From positions 150,047 to 214,046 of the IMG/VR virus record IMGVR_UViG_3300010167_001484: a stretch of 64,000 nt of DNA; one strand, 5' to 3'. Numbering within the stretch: position 1 is the stretch's first letter; each line of letters begins with the position of its first letter. The notes beneath the pieces were generated by a model, which was not told where the DNA came from, did no database searches, and saw only the letters and a program-made list of their open reading frames with translations. This DNA is from a virus. Lineage: Duplodnaviria > Caudoviricetes. The position numbers and the translations under genes were made by a program. Below are positions 24,758 to 64,000 of the stretch, piece by piece.

Positions 24758-26392
24758 ATGTCAAAGTATTATGAATCAAGCATAATAAATATTGTTATGA
24801 GTAATATAGATATGCCCAACGGTGACCATGAATTTATTTGTGGAGAATTCACATATCCTGTTGAAGTGCTTAGTTATGATGGTGATGAAGATGGTAATGT
24901 TGTATGGTCATCTAATCAAAATCTTGGTAGTGCTATAGCAGATGCTAGAATGCTAGTAGTTATTGTACGAGGTAGTCTTATAATAAATACAGGAGTGACA
25001 GTTACACCTCAAACACGTAAGAGAGGGTTCTTATTATATGTGACAGATGTTCTGACAAATAGTGGAACAATCAGTATGACAGCTAGGGGAGCTAGTGCAC
25101 CTAATCAACCTGTTTGGTTATGGTCTCATGAAAATAGAGAAATTGAGATTATAAATGGAATATCTCTTGGAGGTGTGCATCCAAATACTGCTAATAATAC
25201 ACCAGGTGTTAGCGGTCAAGTAGGTTTGAATCGTAAATTAGGTGGAGGCGGTTCAGGAGGACGAAGTAGTAACGTCACAGGTCGTGGAGGTAATTCTACA
25301 TCTTATTCTGGAGGTCCTGGAGGGGGCGGCGGTCATGCCGGAACCGCTACTCAAGGTTCAGATACAGGTGGACCTGGTGGTAATGGATCAGGTAGTGATG
25401 GTGCAGGAACTAGTGGAGGTGGAGCAGGTAATCCTGGGGGAAGTGGTCCAGGAGGAGCTGGGAGTGCTGGAACAGGAGGATTACTTATTATAGCTTGTGA
25501 TGAATTCTATAACATTGGTACAATATCATCTAATGGTTCTAATGGTGCTAATACTTTCTGGTATAGTAATCCAGGAGGAGCTGCTGGTGGAGGTTCCGGT
25601 GGAGGTTCTATCAATATATTCTATATTAAAACCTTTCAACAATATGGTACAATATTGGCAAACGGAGGCCTTGGAGGTAATGCTCTTACAACATCAAATT
25701 CAAGAGGTGGAAATGGTGGAAATGGCTCTATAACACATACTCAGATCGATCCTTATAAATTTTCTACCTTTGAATATAATCGTAGATTTCTTGAAGGAAG
25801 GAGTTTACTTCAAACTATAACAGAAAATTTAAATAAGTTATTAACAGGAAATAGCTTTCTTGATTTCAATGAAGATGTTATATATTCTGCAGAAACTGTT
25901 GTGTATGAAGGAAACTATACATGGGATAATGATAAACTATTTGGAGAAGTACAACCTCAAGGAGTAGATCATAGAATATTAATTGTTTTAATTAAAGGTA
26001 ATTTGAAGATAAATGAAGGTGTGACAATATCAGCAAGAGATTCACGAAGAGCATTCATGTTGGTTGTATTAGGAACATTAGAAAATTATGGAACAATCAA
26101 TATGAAAACAACTGGTTCAATTTTAGGTGGAGATGTTAGAGTATTTCAGAATAATAATAAATCTTATGAAACAATATCAACTGTACAGAAGAATGGAATA
26201 GTTATTATTAGTACGGTACGTTTAATCAATGAAGGGAATCTTATTTTACAGGGAGATTCTATTAATTTATATTATCAAGGTCTTATGAAGTTAGGTAATC
26301 GTGTACTTAAAAAACAAGATGGTTCACCAAATGCGCTAATAGCTCATAGAATAATAGATGCAGATAGAGTAGATAAACTAACATTTGGCTAA
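24758..26392 (+). CDS. Glycine-rich virion/fibre protein, paralog B
   Basis: Same architecture as 23127..24746 (HEFICGEFTYPVEV, GTISMTARGASAPNQ). Confidence 0.7.
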   Translation: MSKYYESSIINIVMSNIDMPNGDHEFICGEFTYPVEVLSYDGDEDGNVVWSSNQNLGSAIADARMLVVIVRGSLIINTGVTVTPQTRKRGFLLYVTDVLTNSGTISMTARGASAPNQPVWLWSHENREIEIINGISLGGVHPNTANNTPGVSGQVGLNRKLGGGGSGGRSSNVTGRGGNSTSYSGGPGGGGGHAGTATQGSDTGGPGGNGSGSDGAGTSGGGAGNPGGSGPGGAGSAGTGGLLIIACDEFYNIGTISSNGSNGANTFWYSNPGGAAGGGSGGGSINIFYIKTFQQYGTILANGGLGGNALTTSNSRGGNGGNGSITHTQIDPYKFSTFEYNRRFLEGRSLLQTITENLNKLLTGNSFLDFNEDVIYSAETVVYEGNYTWDNDKLFGEVQPQGVDHRILIVLIKGNLKINEGVTISARDSRRAFMLVVLGTLENYGTINMKTTGSILGGDVRVFQNNNKSYETISTVQKNGIVIISTVRLINEGNLILQGDSINLYYQGLMKLGNRVLKKQDGSPNALIAHRIIDADRVDKLTFG

Positions 26393-27656: not shown

Positions 27657-30325
27657 ATATTATCCAAGAAGGTAAGTTATATAAGATTTCGTTCAAGTAT
27701 GACCCTCAGATAGTTTATTTTGTAAAAAATGTTCCAGGTAGAAGGTATAGTTCAAATCCCAAATCTTGGACAATTCCTATGGAGAACCTAGGTTTCTTCT
27801 TAAATGAGATCAAGGGTACAGAATATGAGAAGATAGTTAATATACAGTCTACAGAAGACCTCAATGTGAATCCAAAAATCGATACAACACATGTGATACC
27901 GAATATTGATATATCTAATGTGAATTTCAAGGTTAAAGAAGGTGCTACACCATTTGCACATCAATTAGATTTCATGAAATTTGCTATTCATAGATATAAT
28001 AAGGGTAATCATAATGGTTTCATACTCACTGACGAAATGGGGTGTGTTTCTGGGGATGCTGTTATATCTTTTAAAAAAGGGGGAGCTTCAAGTAAACTAT
28101 CGTTAAGGCAGTTTTATAATAGATATTATGGACCTAATATATCAGATAGTGTTGTATCTAGCCTTATAGAGGTTAGATGTTTAGACGAAATTTCTAAGTT
28201 ATTCCGGCATCGTACATGTGAAAATGTAATATATAGTGGCATCAAATCTGTGATTAGATTATCTTTAGATGATGGTAAGATTGTTGATTTAACTCCTGAT
28301 CATTTAGTACGTATAACTATAGAGGGAGATTATAAGGAGGCAGGTGAATTAGTTGTTGGTGACGAAGTAGTGATTAATGGGGAACCTGTATGTAGAAGGT
28401 GTGGTTCTAATGAAGATATGGTTGTGAGAACGGATGCTAAATTCTATGGTTATTGTCGAAGGTGTATGTATACTCTACGTGAGGGTACACGCCATAAACA
28501 TGGTGGAGGAATACATAGACGAATTGATTATGATGGTTATGTATTACTTAGTGGTCCAGAACTTAGAGATCATCCAAATTACAACTATCTTTGTGGTGTA
28601 CTGGAACATCATTATGTTATGTCTAAACATATTGGAAGAGGGATCAATACACCTTATGAAGTAGTTCATCATAAAGATCGAAATAAAACTAATAATGATA
28701 TAACTAATCTAGAATTGCTAACTACAGATAAACATTGGTTGGAACATTGTAATTCTGTTGATTATATAGGTAAGGGTGGACTAGTTGTAATGCGCCCAAA
28801 ATACGCTAAGATTATAGCTATTGAAGATGCCGGTAGTATTGATACCTATGATATACAGATGGAAGCTCCTCATCATAATTTTATAGCTAATGGGGTAGTT
28901 GTACATAATTGTGGTAAAACTGTTGAAGTTATGAATCTTGCTTTATATAGACGAGAGCATCAGAATTATAAACATTGTTTAGTTATTGTTTGTATAAATG
29001 GTGCTAAATATAACTGGGTAGAAGATATATTCTTACATACTAATGGTGAAGAATTACCTTATATCCTTGGTACAAGAATTAAACGCGATGGTAGATTAAA
29101 TCATGATGCAGGAAGTAAAGCTAAACTTGAAGATCTAAAATCTGGTTATTGTTATGGTAAAGAAGATATTAAATTACCTTATTTTCTTGTTATGAATATT
29201 GAAGCAATTAGGATGAAATCTGCGAGAAAAATGCCTATAATGGAAGAAATTATAAGATTGTGTAGATGTGGATACATTAATATGATTGCAATAGACGAAA
29301 TCCATCTTAATATGTCCCCTACTTCATTACAAGGTAAAACCATTCTTAAGATTAAACAACAAACATCTAATTTAGTTGAATGGCTACCTATGACAGGTAC
29401 ACCTATAATAAATAGACCTACAGATGTATTTACACCTCTTAAACTTGTTGGAGGACATGAATTCAGTAATTATTGGGTTTGGAATCAACATTTTGTAGTT
29501 TATGGAGGATTTCAAGGTCATGATATACTTGGATATAAGAATATCCCTCAATTAAAAACTATGCTTCAAACGAATATGCTTCGTAGATTAAAAAGAGATG
29601 TTTTAGATCTTCCTCCTAAGATATATTTTACAGAATATGTAGAGAATACATCTTATCAAAGAAGGTTATATCAAGATATTCAAATTGAACTTAAACAGAA
29701 GAAGGATGAAATAATAAATCAGATGAATCCTCTAGTTGCACTTCTTAGATTACGTCAAGTTAACGGTGCACCTGAATTAGTGGATGATAAACTGGTTATA
29801 GATAAAGATTATTTGAAGAAAAATGCTAAGATTTTAAGAATTCTGGAGATTTTAGCTGATATTCATGAGCGAGGAGAAAAGGTCATCATATATAGCAATT
29901 GGATTGAACCTCTCAAGACTCTCTATAGATTTATTTCTAAAAAATATAAAGTATGTTGTTACACAGGTACAATGAAGAGTTCTGAACGTGAACAGCATAA
30001 ACAAACATTCATTAATAATCCAGAATATACAATCATGATTGGTACAATCGGTGCTTTAGGTACAAGTCATACATTAACTGTAGCAAGAAATGTTATATTC
30101 TTCGATGAATGTTGGACACCTGCTCAGAAGATTCAGGCTGAAGATCGTATCCATCGCCCCGGCACAACACATAGTGTGAACATACATACAATTATAACAA
30201 AAGATACAATTGATGAAGTAGTTCATAATATATTAGCTGATAAGAAGGTGATGGCAGATTATATTGTAGATGGTAGTCTAAATCTTCGCCATAATTCTCA
30301 ATTGTTTGATAGATTGTTGATGTGA
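27650..30325 (+). CDS. SNF2-family helicase with an N-terminal HARP-like domain, interrupted by an intein
   Basis: DEMG/CGKT Walker A split by the intein; DEIH, MTGTP and QAEDRIHRPG motifs; N-terminal FKYDP...VPGRRY...W. Confidence 0.92.
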   Translation: MLNIIQEGKLYKISFKYDPQIVYFVKNVPGRRYSSNPKSWTIPMENLGFFLNEIKGTEYEKIVNIQSTEDLNVNPKIDTTHVIPNIDISNVNFKVKEGATPFAHQLDFMKFAIHRYNKGNHNGFILTDEMGCVSGDAVISFKKGGASSKLSLRQFYNRYYGPNISDSVVSSLIEVRCLDEISKLFRHRTCENVIYSGIKSVIRLSLDDGKIVDLTPDHLVRITIEGDYKEAGELVVGDEVVINGEPVCRRCGSNEDMVVRTDAKFYGYCRRCMYTLREGTRHKHGGGIHRRIDYDGYVLLSGPELRDHPNYNYLCGVLEHHYVMSKHIGRGINTPYEVVHHKDRNKTNNDITNLELLTTDKHWLEHCNSVDYIGKGGLVVMRPKYAKIIAIEDAGSIDTYDIQMEAPHHNFIANGVVVHNCGKTVEVMNLALYRREHQNYKHCLVIVCINGAKYNWVEDIFLHTNGEELPYILGTRIKRDGRLNHDAGSKAKLEDLKSGYCYGKEDIKLPYFLVMNIEAIRMKSARKMPIMEEIIRLCRCGYINMIAIDEIHLNMSPTSLQGKTILKIKQQTSNLVEWLPMTGTPIINRPTDVFTPLKLVGGHEFSNYWVWNQHFVVYGGFQGHDILGYKNIPQLKTMLQTNMLRRLKRDVLDLPPKIYFTEYVENTSYQRRLYQDIQIELKQKKDEIINQMNPLVALLRLRQVNGAPELVDDKLVIDKDYLKKNAKILRILEILADIHERGEKVIIYSNWIEPLKTLYRFISKKYKVCCYTGTMKSSEREQHKQTFINNPEYTIMIGTIGALGTSHTLTVARNVIFFDECWTPAQKIQAEDRIHRPGTTHSVNIHTIITKDTIDEVVHNILADKKVMADYIVDGSLNLRHNSQLFDRLLM
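28043..28909 (+). mobile_element. Intein (289 aa) with an HNH homing endonuclease
   Basis: Starts CVSGDA, has block B LTPDH, ends HNFIANGVVVHN followed by Cys; internal VVHHKDRNKTNNDITNL is an HNH motif. Confidence 0.93.
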
Positions 30326-61520: not shown

Positions 61521-61537
61521 TTTCGTTATAATATAGT

Positions 61538-61897
61538 GAATAGAGTGTGAACCTGTACAGTAAACTAGCGTCAGGGTGGAGTGATTATTTGTCGAACATT
61601 CGGCCGTCAGCCTTGAAAGCAATGCCGGAGAACGCCGCTTCTTGCACCAGTAGACCGGGCTTGTACAATCCGGAATAATCTACGCAAGATATTCGAGATG
61701 CGAATTAGAATGGGAATAGCATTAGCTGGAGCCTTCTGTACAGTGAAGCCCAAGGGAGATAAATAGGAGTACTTGGAGAATAGACTTAGTGAGCTATTCC
61801 GTTGATTAACCATTTTGAGTTCATGGTTATACATCGAGAATCTATGATTGAGGACACAAGTGAAATTAAACCTCATAAAAACAACTTCTATCTATTC
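61538..61897 (+). ncRNA. Candidate ~360-nt structured non-coding RNA of unknown family
   Basis: GC-richer than its surroundings, no plausible + strand ORF, starts just after TTTCGTTATA (61521); terminal GAATAGA / TCTATTC pairing and at least six internal stems. Confidence 0.65.
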
Positions 61898-61927
61898 TTC
61901 CTTGTAAAAAATATTTTTAATTTGGTA

Positions 61928-61956
61928 TTGACTTTTAGTTAGTTTTATTATACAAT
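61928..61956 (+). promoter_or_regulatory. sigma70/sigmaA-type promoter of the Ro60 gene
   Basis: TTGACT-17 nt-TACAAT. Confidence 0.75.
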
Positions 61957-61989
61957 GTAATACTTGATTCATTTCTAGTAGGAGTGTAT

Positions 61990-63633
61990 ATGATGAGTAA
62001 GATATCTAAAGTAGTAGCGGATATGGTCGAAGTACAATCTTTGCAACCAGATAAAATTGTAGAAAATTTTATGTGTGGTGATTCATATGTAATGACTGCA
62101 TTGACAACATTGAAGATGGTTTCTGCAAGTTCAATATTTGGTGAACCTGCTTATTATAGAGATGGATTATTCGGAAGAGCTAAGGTAAAAGATGCTATGT
62201 ATGATGTACATCATCTAATTGGTGAATTTGATTTGTTATCAGAATTTGATAATAAAACTACTTCTGAAATAATGGAAAAAGTTATAGATAACGCTCTCGA
62301 TGAGGATTTTGGTGCAGTGTTATATTGGGCAATTAAACTTCGTCATGAATATAATATGCGTTTGAATCCTCAAGTAATAATGGTTCGTGCAGCCATGCAT
62401 CCAAGAAGGAAAGAATGGACAGATAATAATCCAGGTAAATTTAATGAGATTCAAATGCAAGTTATGTCACGTGCTGATGAGCCTGCTACACAACTTACAT
62501 ACTATCTATTTAAACATGAAGGAAAGAAGAATAATATTCCATCTATTCTTAAACGTTCAATAGCGAAACGTCTTTCTGAGTTCGGTTTTTATCAGATTGC
62601 TAAATATAAGAATCATGAAATAGGTATTATAAATGCAGTTCGTTTGACTCATGCAAATTCTAAAGTTATCGATGAGTTAATGCAGAAGGGTACAATTGAA
62701 CTCAACACTGAGCAAAAAACATGGGAGAATCTACGTTCTGAAGGTAAATCTTGGATAGAAATTTATAATACTATAAATATCGGTCATATGGCCTTACTTA
62801 GAAATATCCGAGGAGTATTTGAAGAAGTTGATGATATCGATTTTTGTAAAGTTTATATGGAGAAACTTAAATCAGGTGTATTAGATGGAAAACAATTTCC
62901 GTTTAGATATTTATCAGCTATGAAAGCAATAACTAATTCTAATGTCAACCATAAAATTATAATAATGGATGAATTAGAGATTTGTATGGATATCGCAGTA
63001 AATAATATGCCTAAGATCAAAGGTAAAACAATGTGTTTATCTGATAACTCAGGCTCAGCTTGGGGTACATTTAATTCTGAATACGGTACAATTACAATAG
63101 CTGAAATTGATAATCTTTCATCAGTGATAGTTGCAGCATGTTCAGATGAAGGATATGTTGGAAAATTTGGAAATCGTTTAATTATCACACCTATAACTAA
63201 ACGTAGCGGTATATTGAATCATACAAAGAGTATTAATGATAATGAATCTGAAGATGTTGGTGGCAATACTGAAGGAGGTATATGGGAATTCTTTCGAGAT
63301 GCTATAGCTGATAAAGAACATTGGGATAATATATGTATTTTCAGTGATATGCAGTGTGGACATGGTCAACTTTATGGTACAAGTTACCAGAAATCAGAAT
63401 ATGAAAAAGCTGGATTTGATGAAGTAGGTCATATAAATGTTTTTGCACTTGTTAGAGAATATCGCAAGAAAGTTAACCCTAAAGTTAATGTATTCTGTAT
63501 ACAAACTGCAGGTTATGATAATTCATCAATACCTGAATTAGCTTACAGAACTCATCTGATGTATGGGTGGACTGGACGAGAATTAGTATATATGGATTCT
63601 GTTATAAAACTTTGGGATGAATCAGAAAATTGA
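61990..63633 (+). CDS. Ro60 / TROVE-domain RNA-binding protein with a vWA domain
   Basis: FGEPAYY, MRLNP, YQIAKY, TWE, MALLRN, QFPFRY, MIDAS-like DNSGS, SDMQ and YGW motifs typical of Ro60/Rsr. Start is 61984, 61990 or 61993. Confidence 0.92.
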   Translation: MMSKISKVVADMVEVQSLQPDKIVENFMCGDSYVMTALTTLKMVSASSIFGEPAYYRDGLFGRAKVKDAMYDVHHLIGEFDLLSEFDNKTTSEIMEKVIDNALDEDFGAVLYWAIKLRHEYNMRLNPQVIMVRAAMHPRRKEWTDNNPGKFNEIQMQVMSRADEPATQLTYYLFKHEGKKNNIPSILKRSIAKRLSEFGFYQIAKYKNHEIGIINAVRLTHANSKVIDELMQKGTIELNTEQKTWENLRSEGKSWIEIYNTINIGHMALLRNIRGVFEEVDDIDFCKVYMEKLKSGVLDGKQFPFRYLSAMKAITNSNVNHKIIIMDELEICMDIAVNNMPKIKGKTMCLSDNSGSAWGTFNSEYGTITIAEIDNLSSVIVAACSDEGYVGKFGNRLIITPITKRSGILNHTKSINDNESEDVGGNTEGGIWEFFRDAIADKEHWDNICIFSDMQCGHGQLYGTSYQKSEYEKAGFDEVGHINVFALVREYRKKVNPKVNVFCIQTAGYDNSSIPELAYRTHLMYGWTGRELVYMDSVIKLWDESEN

Positions 63634-63729
63634 GTACTGATGCAGCTAGATCGGTTACTTCATATAATGAATAAGACTGCTAATCTTACACCCGGAAGGG
63701 TTTACCGATCTAATTATTCTCAGTACTCA
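63631..63729 (+). ncRNA. Y-RNA-like RNA with a tRNA-like cloverleaf head (Ser GCU anticodon-type loop)
   Basis: Perfect stems TGAGTACTGA/TCAGTACTCA and TAGATCGGT/ACCGATCTA enclose three hairpins; directly follows the Ro60 gene. Confidence 0.8.
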
Positions 63730-63751
63730 GAATTTAAGAAGGAGTTATTTT

Positions 63752-64000
63752 GTGAAGAGATTATTAGGTATTTTACTTATTTTAATCTTAGTTGGAGTAT
63801 TGTTAAGTTTAGTGTATTATGATATTTCAAGTCATGCATCAGTTGATAGTCATTCTATATTTGATGAAATAATCCATTATGTGATACACATAGTAATTTG
63901 TGTTATATTCTGTACGTTATTTCATAATTCAATGCATAAATTCTTAAATTGGGTTATAAAACTTGTAGGTTTCAAAATCCAAGATAGTCATAAAGATTAG
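63752..64000 (+). CDS. Small membrane protein
   Basis: GTG start after AGGAG; two hydrophobic segments. Confidence 0.55.
   Translation: MKRLLGILLILILVGVLLSLVYYDISSHASVDSHSIFDEIIHYVIHIVICVIFCTLFHNSMHKFLNWVIKLVGFKIQDSHKD

What the first reader, a model, noticed from the sequence alone, without database searches (positions are those of the whole stretch)
63631..63729. Y-RNA-like tRNA mimic with a Ser(GCU) anticodon loop, starting at the Ro60 stop codon
Seen: a 10-bp perfect stem (63631-40 / 63720-29), an internal loop, then a 9-bp perfect stem (63647-55 / 63704-12) closing a junction with three arms. The arms are TTCAT-ata-ATGAA (63659-71), TAAGA-CTGCTAA-TCTTA (63672-88) and ACCC-GGAA-GGGT (63690-701, GNRA loop). 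The middle arm has anticodon-arm geometry: a 5-bp stem and a 7-nt loop CU-GCU-AA, as in tRNA-Ser(GCU). There is no TTCRA T-loop and no CCA, so it is not a tRNA. Established: bacterial Ro60/Rsr genes lie next to Y RNAs, and YrlA-type Y RNAs mimic tRNA mainly through D- and T-like arms. Inference: this is a Y-RNA variant that displays an anticodon instead, possibly a Ro-stabilised decoy for host anticodon nucleases or tRNA-targeting toxins. It would be co-expressed early from the sigmaA-type promoter at 61928.
Basis: partly seen in the sequence, partly recalled or inferred. Interest (0 to 1): 0.88.

Follow-up and report, generated by a model that had tools for sequence, protein, structure and literature searches.

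The report
Phage Y RNA with anticodon-like hairpin
The 99-base element right behind this termite-gut phage's Ro60 gene is a genuine Y RNA, the small RNA partner of Ro60; it belongs to a large, uncatalogued phage family that shares one conserved "handle" and carries variable tRNA-derived tops, and its anticodon-like hairpin is typical of the family although what that hairpin does is untested.

Summary
Observation confirmed.

Interpretation partly supported. A covariance model built only from 51 relatives (window excluded) finds this element at 68 bits (E 5e-12). It is the only hit in the 214-kb phage genome. The model finds 273 more copies beside TROVE/Ro60 genes in about 110 phage loci, all on the Ro60 strand, in arrays of 1 to 9, and the two basal stems covary. 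The neighbouring protein folds like Ro60. Syntenic relatives of this phage lack a 2-kb cassette (promoter, Ro60, Y RNA) whose right end falls 3-7 nt after the RNA.

Rfam YrlA and tRNA models do not match. There are no D or T arms, so it is not an L-shaped tRNA mimic. The 5-bp/7-nt hairpin with a CU-NNN-AA loop is about six-fold enriched in the family and is present in 16 of 29 unique RNAs at the same position, with ten different stem sequences. The triplet varies (UUU, UGA, GUU, GCU and others), so GCU itself is not conserved.

The decoy role is untested, and a similar idea is already in print for YrlA. Earlier notes of this scan report similar Ro60-like/handle-RNA systems in other phages. Verdict: new variant of a known kind.

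The parts
61735..63732 (+). About 2-kb inserted cassette (5' region with promoter-like site, Ro60 gene, Y RNA). It is absent from syntenic relatives of this phage.
   Evidence: BLASTN and alignment against L250/L251/L252. Homology runs up to window 61734 and resumes at about 63733. In L252 the two flanks lie 16 nt apart. There is no TROVE gene and no R1 hit in L250 or L252.
61928..61956 (+). Sigma-70-like promoter candidate TTGACT-17-TACAAT inside the cassette
   Evidence: 10 of 12 matches. This is consensus only; the number of such sites in the region is not above the shuffle expectation.
61990..63633 (+). Ro60/TROVE+vWA protein gene (547 aa)
   Evidence: Pfam TROVE scores 22.1 bits, just under the cutoff of 23. 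It is 53% identical to Bacillus phage G gp540, annotated as a 'TROVE domain ribonucleoprotein'. The AF2 model (pLDDT 69) matches Thermus phage phiLo Ro60 9KOP (E 2.7e-12), Xenopus and human Ro60, and D. radiodurans Rsr 2NVO.
63631..63729 (+). Y RNA (the finding)
   Evidence: Covariance model R1, built without the window, matches 63633-63727 at 68 bits, E 4.6e-12. It is the only hit in the whole 214-kb genome.
63631..63640 (+). Handle stem 1, 5' strand (pairs with 63720-63729); it contains the TGA stop codon
   Evidence: In the family all 8 modelled pairs show compensatory changes.
63639..63645 (+). Conserved 5' handle motif GAUGCAG (family consensus GA-W-GC-R-G). GA closes stem 1 and UGCAG opens the internal loop. 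It is the likely Ro60 contact and resembles the YrlA motif GNCGAAN0-1G.
   Evidence: G, A, G, C and G are invariant in 51 diverse relatives. The comparison with the YrlA motif uses PMC4201824 and the Rfam YrlA consensus shown, and was made by eye.
63647..63655 (+). Handle stem 2, 5' strand (pairs with 63704-63712)
   Evidence: In the family stem 2 was not used to select members, yet 75-88% of cells pair against about 40% in slid controls, and 9-10 of 10 pairs change on both sides.
63655..63661 (+). Conserved UUACUUC motif at the top of stem 2 (corresponds to the YUAY of YrlA)
   Evidence: Nearly invariant in alignment A2. The YUAY feature is described in PMC4201824.
63659..63671 (+). Apical arm A: 5-bp stem, 3-nt loop (D-arm position, not D-arm-like)
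   Evidence: No counterpart was found in relatives.
63672..63688 (+). Apical arm B: anticodon-stem-loop-like hairpin, 5 bp plus 7-nt loop CUGCUAA (triplet GCU at 63679-63681)
   Evidence: This hairpin class occurs in 29 of 133 unique apical modules against 4.8 +/- 2.2 in shuffles, and in 16 of 29 unique RNAs at the first position after the Ro60 stop.
63690..63701 (+). Apical arm C: ACCC-GGAA-GGGU GNRA hairpin (T-arm position, not T-arm-like)
   Evidence: The same ACCC-GAAA-GGGU hairpin follows an anticodon-like hairpin in L004:5366-5463.
63713..63721 (+). Conserved 3' handle motif AUUAUUCUC; the final UC pairs with GA of the 5' motif
   Evidence: TCT is invariant and A, T and C nearly invariant in A2.
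63739..63754 (+). RBS AAGGAG and GTG start of the resident downstream 82-aa membrane-like gene, where homology to relatives resumes

Best explanation
The element is a phage Y RNA, the non-coding partner of the Ro60 (TROVE+vWA) protein encoded immediately upstream. It consists of a conserved 'handle' and a variable top. The handle is the outer stem, an internal loop carrying GAUGCAG on the 5' side and AUUAUUC on the 3' side, the second stem, and UUACUUC. This handle is what the phage Ro60 ring recognises (inferred). The top is here three small hairpins: a reduced, tRNA-derived module that keeps a canonical anticodon-stem-loop shape but has lost D- and T-arm character. Gene and RNA travel together as a 2-kb cassette and are most likely transcribed together, with the RNA released by processing (inferred; the stop codon lies inside the RNA and no terminator follows). 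By analogy with Rsr/Y RNA/PNPase in Deinococcus and Salmonella and with phage phiLo Ro60/Yrl/PNPase, the handle would gate or load Ro60 and the top would dock a host factor, so that the particle redirects host RNA turnover or tRNA-directed enzymes during infection. Shown here: family membership, covariation of the handle stems, linkage to Ro60, the cassette boundaries, and enrichment of anticodon-like hairpins. Inferred: binding, processing, and what the top does.
For: (1) Model R1 was built from 51 diverse relatives with only the two handle stems as structure. It hits window 63633-63727 at 68 bits, E 4.6e-12; the next window hit scores 21.9 bits, and this is the only hit in the 214-kb genome. 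(2) R1 finds 175 hits in 80 metagenomic TROVE loci and 98 in 29 further loci, every one on the TROVE strand and clustered within about 1.5 kb of the gene. A motif-plus-stem heuristic gave 203 on the + strand and 0 on the - strand in 589 kb. (3) Covariation: 86.5% of cells pair in A2 and 91.2% in A3, against 31-45% in slid controls, and all 18 modelled pairs show double-sided changes. Stem 2 played no part in the selection. (4) The protein has the Ro60 fold and is 53% identical to phage G gp540; Chen et al. 2014 reported Y-like RNAs in phages, including phage G according to PMC12135203. (5) In other phages, array members with the same handle carry the T-acceptor-D module of YrlA and hit Rfam YrlA at 37 bits, E 2e-6. 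This ties the handle family to YrlA-type Y RNAs. (6) Cassette: syntenic relatives L250 and L252 lack 61735-63732, and the right junction lies 3-7 nt after the RNA. Those relatives have no R1 hit. (7) In relatives the RNA starts 4-10 nt after the Ro60 stop in most of the 46 loci that have one downstream.
Against: There is no transcript, processing or binding data for any family member. Pfam TROVE scores just under its cutoff (22.1 against 23), and the structure model is of moderate confidence (pLDDT 69). The handle motif is only loosely similar to the published GNCGAAN0-1G motif, and the Rfam YrlA model did not align to the handle part in relatives, so homology of the handle to YrlA/YrlB handles is a judgement made by eye. 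Alignment A3 was fitted to the model, which inflates its pair counts, and stem 1 pairing in A2 was a selection criterion. The closest Ro60 homologues (65-69% identity) carry different tops, so the three apical arms of this particular RNA cannot be tested by covariation. Only L004:5366-5463 shares two of them.
Confidence: 0.82

Rival explanations
1. The Ro60-bound RNA displays a tRNA-Ser(GCU)-like anticodon loop as a decoy or competitive inhibitor that soaks up a host anticodon nuclease or another tRNA-targeting toxin. Alternatively, it brings such an enzyme to Ro60/PNPase.
For: Anticodon-like hairpins (5 bp plus a 7-nt Y-U-NNN-R-H loop, T-loops excluded) occur in 29 of 133 unique tops, against 4.8 +/- 2.2 (maximum 11) in shuffles and 3 on the reverse complement. 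They occur in 16 of 29 unique first-position RNAs, with ten different stem sequences and constant geometry. Loops are overwhelmingly C32-U33-NNN-A37-A38. The triplets include UUU and GUA, anticodons of tRNAs that known defence nucleases cut (my own knowledge, not tested here). The phage has no RtcB, Rnl1 or Rnl2 tRNA-repair ligase (the Rnl1 search had no positive control). A competitive-inhibitor role for YrlA has been proposed in print (PMC7790460).
Against: No functional data exist. The triplet is not conserved between homologous loci (UUU and GUU occur on identical stems in L049 and L051; GCU occurs only here and in the L028 group). About half of first-position RNAs, and most other family members, lack such a hairpin. 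UUU-rich loops are favoured by AT-rich composition, and related sequences were counted without phylogenetic correction. The hairpins may simply be what remains of tRNA ancestors. The host, its tRNA-Ser and its defence nucleases are unknown.
Confidence: 0.12
2. The top is a decayed tRNA remnant with no sequence-specific role. Only the handle matters (gating Ro60's cavity), and the hairpins merely stabilise the RNA against nucleases.
For: Tops are hypervariable even between close Ro60 homologues. Some family members have almost no top (70-76 nt). Other members embed complete cloverleaves or YrlA modules, consistent with repeated capture and erosion of tRNA sequence.
Against: Anticodon-like geometry is retained with many different stem sequences, which indicates selection on the shape and not mere inheritance. 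The ACCC-GNRA-GGGU hairpin recurs in L004 next to an anticodon-like hairpin.
Confidence: 0.3
3. It is not a stand-alone RNA but a cis-acting 3' element of the Ro60 mRNA (a stabiliser or terminator), or a regulator of the downstream gene whose RBS lies 10 nt away.
For: It overlaps the stop codon, has no promoter of its own, and sits directly before the RBS of the next gene.
Against: No U-tract follows and no terminator is predicted. The same handle occurs in tandem arrays of up to 8-9 copies, upstream as well as downstream of Ro60 genes and amid tRNA genes, which is inconsistent with a 3'-UTR role. The conserved nucleotides lie in loops, not only in stems.
Confidence: 0.05

Closest known systems
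YrlB-type bacterial Y RNAs (Salmonella Typhimurium and M. smegmatis YrlB; Chen et al. 2013/2014, PMC4201824)
   Same: A short Ro60-adjacent RNA on the same strand. It has a long terminal stem with a conserved purine-rich 5' motif at an internal loop and lacks the D/T tRNA-like domain.
   Different: The handle sequence is GA-W-GC-R-G ... UUACUUC ... AUUCUC, not GNCGAAN0-1G. The RNA is phage-encoded within a 2-kb cassette. The top contains a canonical 7-nt anticodon-like loop. No Rfam family covers it.
YrlA (Rfam RF02553; Chen et al. 2014; structure in Wang et al. 2018, 10.1101/312249)
   Same: Partner RNA of bacterial and phage Ro60, with a handle plus a tRNA-derived effector module. Sister RNAs with the same handle in related phages carry the YrlA V-T-acceptor-D module and hit RF02553 weakly. 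YUAY follows the handle.
   Different: This RNA has no T arm, no D arm and no acceptor hairpin, and gives no RF02553 hit. YrlA lacks an anticodon loop, as stated in 10.1101/312249, whereas this RNA has only that.
Deinococcus radiodurans Yrn1
   Same: Chen et al. model Yrn1 in the non-permuted orientation with a 5-bp 'anticodon arm' between D-like and T-like elements. This RNA has the same arm order.
   Different: The Yrn1 loop has 6 nt, Yrn1 retains a T stem-loop, and its Ro-binding helix is metazoan-like. Here the loop has the canonical 7 nt and there is no T loop.
Thermus phage phiLo Ro60 with Yrl1/Yrl2 (PMC12135203; PDB 9KOP, 9L5Y)
   Same: A phage Ro60 with adjacent Y-like RNAs (stem, bulge, stem). 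It is the best structural match to this protein. Binding and a ternary complex with host PNPase have been shown there.
   Different: The phiLo RNAs lie upstream and use a CGAA bulge. No tRNA-part display is described. The proteins are only about 20% identical in the structural alignment.
Phage Ro60-like (DUF2828-type) proteins with arrays of 'UACAGCAA-handle' RNAs, noted earlier in this scan (e1-272486, e1-5459201, e1-5679549)
   Same: The same design: a Ro60-fold protein plus tandem RNAs that share one handle and carry interchangeable tRNA-like or hairpin tops, placed beside tRNA arrays.
   Different: The handle sequence and the protein branch differ. Those notes are unchecked AI findings and I did not test them.

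Membership tests
Y RNA (Ro60/Rsr-associated ncRNA, bacterial/phage Yrl type) | Encoded next to a Ro60 orthologue and on the same strand | tested here: met
   The RNA starts at the Ro60 stop codon. The protein has the Ro60 fold. All 274 family hits lie on the TROVE strand.
Y RNA (Ro60/Rsr-associated ncRNA, bacterial/phage Yrl type) | The 5' and 3' ends pair into a long stem interrupted by a bulge or internal loop | tested here: met
   10-bp and 9-bp stems flank a 6/7-nt internal loop, and both stems covary in the family.
Y RNA (Ro60/Rsr-associated ncRNA, bacterial/phage Yrl type) | Conserved Ro-binding motif on the 5' strand (GGUCCGA in metazoa; GNCGAAN0-1G in YrlA/YrlB) | tested here: inconclusive
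   A conserved 5' motif exists at the equivalent place (GAUGCAG; family consensus GA-W-GC-R-G, with some members reading GGCGAAGCGG). It is a variant of the published motif, and the equivalence was judged by eye.
Y RNA (Ro60/Rsr-associated ncRNA, bacterial/phage Yrl type) | Exists as a discrete small RNA bound by Ro60 | not testable with these tools
   This needs RNA-seq or northern blots and a pull-down or EMSA.
YrlA (Rfam RF02553) | tRNA-like domain with conserved T and D stem-loops flanking an acceptor-like hairpin; score at or above the gathering threshold of 69 bits | tested here: not met
   No RF02553 hit at gathering threshold or at E<=10, and there is no GTTCRA or AGCTCA motif in the sequence. 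Sister RNAs in L013 score 37 bits.
tRNA | Cloverleaf with D loop, T loop and a 7-bp acceptor stem with a free 3' end | tested here: not met
   ARAGORN finds none in the window. Rfam tRNA gives no match at E<=10. Only the anticodon-arm geometry is present.
Phage 'GAUGCAG/UUACUUC/AUUCUC-handle' RNA family defined here (model R1) | Match to a covariance model built from relatives without the window | tested here: met
   68 bits, E 4.6e-12, full model length. This is among the top-scoring members.
Anticodon stem-loop mimic | 5-bp stem and 7-nt loop with Y32, U33, R37 | tested here: met
   TAAGA-CUGCUAA-UCUUA has pair probability 0.77-0.94. The class is enriched in the family.
Anticodon stem-loop mimic | Recognised by an anticodon-directed enzyme (nuclease or modification enzyme) | not testable with these tools
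   No data. The host is unknown.

The most novel reading that the evidence does not exclude
Phage Ro60 genes come with a 'library' of handle RNAs whose tops present chosen tRNA parts. This one is a minimal version: one Ro60 and one RNA that displays only an anticodon stem-loop. In this reading the Ro60-bound anticodon loop is a programmable bait that traps host anticodon-directed enzymes (defence nucleases or modification enzymes) or delivers them to a nuclease such as PNPase. The triplet would then set which host enzyme is countered.
Probability: 0.12. Interest if true: 0.85.

Novelty: new variant of a known kind. Interest (0 to 1): 0.6.

Why it matters
Ro60 and Y RNAs are conserved from bacteria to humans, and Ro60 is a major lupus and Sjogren autoantigen, yet what the variable part of a Y RNA does is known in only a few cases (tethering PNPase). 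This phage family offers hundreds of natural variants in which one constant handle carries very different tRNA-derived tops. The present phage is the simplest case I saw: a 2-kb cassette with one Ro60 gene and one 99-nt RNA, gained by insertion relative to sister phages. That makes it a convenient test system. One can express the pair, ask what the RNA top binds, and ask whether the anticodon-like loop matters for infection in hosts with tRNA-cleaving defences. The family is also missing from Rfam, so these RNAs currently go unannotated, or are mis-annotated as odd tRNAs, in phage genomes.

Tried and rejected
- **Rfam.** The whole window at gathering threshold and 63400-64000 at E<=10 gave only noise hits to snoRNA models.
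- **ARAGORN.** No tRNA in the window.
- **Megablast against phage records.** No match.
- **phmmer of the protein against PDB sequences.** Nothing. The fold search was needed to see Ro60.
- **Nearest named phages.** In Bacillus phage G and Desulfovibrio phage SRB7757 only a terminator hairpin follows the Ro60 gene. I first read this as absence of the RNA. In phage G the RNAs turned out to lie upstream, in an unannotated 1-kb gap. SRB7757 (33% identity) has no R1 hit within 1.5 kb.
- **Protein-pattern scans of IMG/VR.** Scans with the single protein and with the neighbouring PRTase found nothing. An alignment query was needed.
- **DNA pattern for this RNA's subtype.** ACTTC...ACCCGRAAGGGT...TTCTC in IMG/VR gave six unrelated GC-rich hits. 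No close orthologue of the apical module was found, so covariation of the three arms could not be tested.
- **Handle pattern in 185,579 prokaryote genomes.** It gave 120+ hits, about the number expected by chance. Among the 80 of these loci that I searched with R1, only one (L204, a Eubacterium MAG contig from yak) holds real members.
- **Terminator or 3'-UTR reading.** Rejected: there is no U-tract, and the family occurs in arrays.
- **tRNA pseudogene reading.** Rejected for the RNA as a whole because of the conserved handle. It is retained as a possible origin of the top.
- **Papers not held.** Sim and Wolin 2018 and Sim et al. 2020 could not be read, and the supplementary tables of Chen et al. 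2014 are not held. I therefore could not check which phage G RNA they listed.
Full report
**1.

- The three hairpins are TTCAT-ATA-ATGAA, TAAGA-CTGCTAA-TCTTA and ACCC-GGAA-GGGT.
- The TGA stop of the 547-aa ORF 61990-63633 forms the first three bases of the outer stem.
- RNAfold gives this structure as both MFE and centroid, at -33.5 kcal/mol against -17.9 +/- 3.0 for shuffles (z -5.15). Every helix has high pair probability.
- ARAGORN finds no tRNA in the window. Rfam finds nothing at the gathering threshold, and nothing but noise at E<=10.
- The opposite strand folds equally well, so folding alone does not settle the strand.

**2. The neighbouring protein is a Ro60**

- Pfam TROVE is just below its cutoff (22.1 against 23 bits), and sequence search of the PDB finds nothing.
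- The protein is 53% identical to Bacillus phage G gp540, which is annotated as a TROVE ribonucleoprotein.
- It has more than 3,300 metagenomic relatives, the closest at about 64-66% identity.
- An AlphaFold model from 18 homologues (pLDDT 69) has its best structural matches in Thermus phage phiLo Ro60 (9KOP, E 2.7e-12), Xenopus and human Ro60, and D. radiodurans Rsr. The layout is a helical repeat region followed by a vWA domain.

**3. The RNA belongs to a large family tied to this protein**

I first looked at the DNA just after the stop codon in homologous loci. Many carry an RNA with the same frame:

- an outer stem that ends in GA;
- then (U/A)GC(A/G)G;
- a second stem;
- (G)UUACUUC;
- a variable insert of 20-120 nt;
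- the return strand of stem 2;
- AUUAUUCUC;
- the return strand of stem 1.

A simple motif-plus-stem scan found 203 such frames on the Ro60 strand and none on the other strand in 589 kb of loci.

I then aligned 51 mutually dissimilar members, leaving out the window (A2). From that alignment I built covariance model R1 with only the two handle stems as structure.

| Search with R1 | Result |
|---|---|
| The window | 63633-63727, 68 bits, E 4.6e-12; next best 21.9 bits with unpaired stems |
| The whole 214-kb genome | this is the only hit |
| 80 metagenomic TROVE loci | 175 hits |
| 29 further loci | 98 hits |

- All hits are on the TROVE strand. They lie in arrays of one to eight or nine, usually packed 10-20 nt apart, downstream or upstream of the gene and often next to tRNA arrays.
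- The handle stems covary. In A2, 86.5% of cells pair against 35-44% when the partner is slid. In the 135 distinct rows of A3, 91% pair against 31-45%, and all 18 pairs change on both sides.
- Two caveats apply. Stem 1 pairing was a selection criterion for A2, and A3 is fitted to the model. Stem 2 in A2 is free of both problems and still pairs in 75% of cells, with nine of ten pairs changing on both sides.

**4. Relation to known Y RNAs**

- Chen et al. 2014 (PMC4201824) defined bacterial YrlA by three features: a 5' motif GNCGAAN0-1G, a YUAY that follows the stem, and a permuted tRNA-like domain in the order V, T, acceptor hairpin, D.
- They reported such RNAs in 22 phages. According to PMC12135203 these include Bacillus phage G.
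- In the present family the 5' motif (C/U)GA(A/U)GC(A/G)G sits at the same place as in YrlA. Some members read GGCGAAGCGG, which fits the published motif. UUAC after stem 2 fits YUAY.
- Of 153 unique members (152 from related loci plus the window RNA), 27 carry a T-then-D module. Two of these in L013 hit Rfam YrlA at 37 bits (E 2e-6, below the gathering score of 69).
- Another 27 have a T loop only. Some of these are complete non-permuted cloverleaves that ARAGORN and the Rfam tRNA model call tRNAs (Ser-GCU, Ser-UGA, Lys-UUU, Thr-GGU and a 'stop' UUA).
- The 'Ser' ones are only 69-73 nt long and so lack the long variable arm of a genuine bacterial tRNA-Ser. That inference rests on general knowledge of class II tRNAs.
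- The remaining 93, including the window RNA, have hairpin-only tops (6 sequences had no recognisable UACUUC motif).
- The family is therefore a branch of the YrlA/YrlB type of Y RNA with its own handle, and it is not covered by Rfam. The window RNA is closest in kind to YrlB.

**5. The anticodon-like arm**

- The window RNA has no D or T arm, so it cannot form a tRNA elbow. Calling it a 'tRNA mimic' overstates the case. What it has is an anticodon-stem-loop shape.
- That shape is not a one-off. Hairpins with a 5-bp stem and a 7-nt Y-U-NNN-R-H loop (T loops excluded) occur in 29 of 133 unique tops. Dinucleotide-type shuffles give 4.8 +/- 2.2 (maximum 11), and the reverse complements give 3.
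- 24 of the 33 loops are C-U-NNN-A-A.
- At the homologous position, meaning the first RNA directly after the Ro60 stop, 46 of 104 loci have a family RNA. Of the 29 unique RNAs there, 16 carry such a hairpin, on ten different stem sequences.
- The triplet is not conserved. It is UUU, UGA, GUU, AAU or GGA, and GCU only in the L028 group and here. Identical stems carry UUU in L049 and GUU in L051.
- The nearest structural analogue, L004:5366-5463, has CATAT-CTGTTAA-ATATG followed by ACCC-GAAA-GGGT. That is two of the three arms, with a different stem and a different triplet.
- No closer orthologue exists in the collections I could search. The closest Ro60 homologue with downstream DNA (L086, 69% identity) has a different top.
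- Published YrlA lacks an anticodon loop (10.1101/312249). D. radiodurans Yrn1 was modelled with a 5-bp 'anticodon arm' and a 6-nt loop.

**6. Ro60 and the RNA form one cassette**

I tested this.
- The 123-aa protein upstream has relatives at 69-70% identity on a 218-kb contig (L250) and on a termite-gut contig (L252).
- These are syntenic with the window: UvrD-like helicase, SMC-like ATPase, small genes, leader RNA, then an 82-103-aa membrane-like protein. They contain no TROVE gene.
- BLASTN and alignment show homology up to window 61734 and again from about 63733. The two flanks lie 16 nt apart in L252.
- The inserted block, 61735 to about 63732, contains the promoter-like site TTGACT-17-TACAAT, the Ro60 gene and the Y RNA. 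It ends 3-7 nt after the last base of the RNA, just before the RBS of the resident gene.
- L250 and L252 have no R1 hit.
- The protein and the RNA were therefore gained together, and the RNA is the last element of the unit.

**7. How it most likely works**

- Shown: family membership, handle covariation, linkage to Ro60 and the cassette structure.
- Inferred: the RNA is transcribed with the Ro60 mRNA and cut out. There is no terminator and no separate promoter, and in relatives the RNAs are packed like the genes of a tRNA operon.
- Inferred: the handle binds the phage Ro60.
- Inferred: the top docks something else. The precedents are PNPase tethering by Yrn1 and YrlA (PMC4201824) and the phiLo Ro60-Yrl-PNPase complex (PMC12135203).
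- The decoy idea is reasonable but untested. Hughes et al. 2020 already suggested that YrlA might competitively inhibit an anticodon nuclease (PMC7790460).
- The phage shows no RtcB, Rnl1 or Rnl2, so it has no obvious tRNA-repair route. The Rnl1 search had no positive control.
- A plainer alternative is that the tops are eroding tRNA captures and only the handle matters.

**8. Verdict**

- This is a real Y RNA of a phage-specific, uncatalogued handle family. It is a minimal variant whose only tRNA-like feature is an anticodon stem-loop.
- Phage Ro60 with adjacent Y RNAs is known. The handle, the arrays, the recurrent anticodon-like hairpins and the clean 2-kb cassette are, as far as I could find in the papers searched, not described.
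- Earlier notes of this scan describe analogous systems with a different handle in other phages. I did not test those.

Noticed in passing
L002:759-1438 (= NC_023719.1 about 406669-407348), Bacillus phage G: Five tandem handle RNAs (R1 scores 38-61 bits) fill the unannotated 1-kb gap upstream of gp540 (TROVE). The record annotates nothing there. A genuine 88-nt tRNA-Ser(gct) lies 1 kb downstream of gp540.
   Followed up: partly
L028:4245-4317, L013:4181-4251, L020:4168-4240, L025:4201-4273, L026:1826-1898: Complete cloverleaves that ARAGORN and Rfam call tRNAs (Ser-GCU, Ser-UGA, Lys-UUU, a 'stop' UUA) are embedded inside Y-RNA handles directly after the Ro60 gene. The 'Ser' ones are 71-73 nt and so lack the long variable arm. 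It is open whether RNase P/Z frees them as working tRNAs or whether they stay caged in the handle.
   Followed up: partly
L096:12-1371, L099:1-1375, L102:175-1361: Arrays of eight or nine handle RNAs with different tops lie upstream of a single TROVE gene. These are the largest arrays seen.
   Followed up: no
L013:4529-4660, L012:4487-4646, L023:4303-4435, L052:3291-3440: In YrlA-type members, the 'V' hairpin between UUACUUC and the T arm is itself a 4-5-bp stem with a 7-nt CUGNUAA loop (GUU, GGU or GAU). The Rfam tRNA model aligns it as an anticodon arm. These look like tRNAs permuted at the junction between the D arm and the anticodon arm.
   Followed up: partly
L019:381-1024; L018:1877-2281; L023:5631-6031; L011:6484-6607; L012:5577-5623: Related phage loci carry a ROOL RNA, phage tmRNAs and DUF3800-I/XI RNAs close to the Ro60/Y-RNA/tRNA region (Rfam gathering-level hits).
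   Followed up: no
G000:C1:1125-1920 (just beyond the window end if the genome is circularly permuted): The phage's seven tRNA genes (Gly x2, Trp, Leu, Arg x2, Gln) lie about 1.4-2.2 kb past the Y RNA. There is no tRNA-Ser. The layout of Ro60, Y RNA, then tRNA array is therefore as in relatives.
   Followed up: partly
window 30206-30305 and 25787-25873 (+): Weak R1 matches (21.9 and 19.4 bits; E 0.02 and 0.08) keep the end motifs but not stem 2. They are probably chance and were not examined.
   Followed up: no
L145, L149, L152, L153, L169, L174, L175, L179, L182, L187, L193 (Gastranaerophilales / Melainabacteria genomes): The handle DNA pattern matched at a constant 80-nt span in eleven Gastranaerophilales/Melainabacteria genomes, but R1 does not recognise them. 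Some other conserved sequence is shared by these genomes.
   Followed up: no
window 61735-61927: The first ~190 nt of the inserted cassette, ahead of the promoter-like site, has no assigned function. It overlaps the region flagged by another finding as a leader RNA (61521-61897).
   Followed up: no
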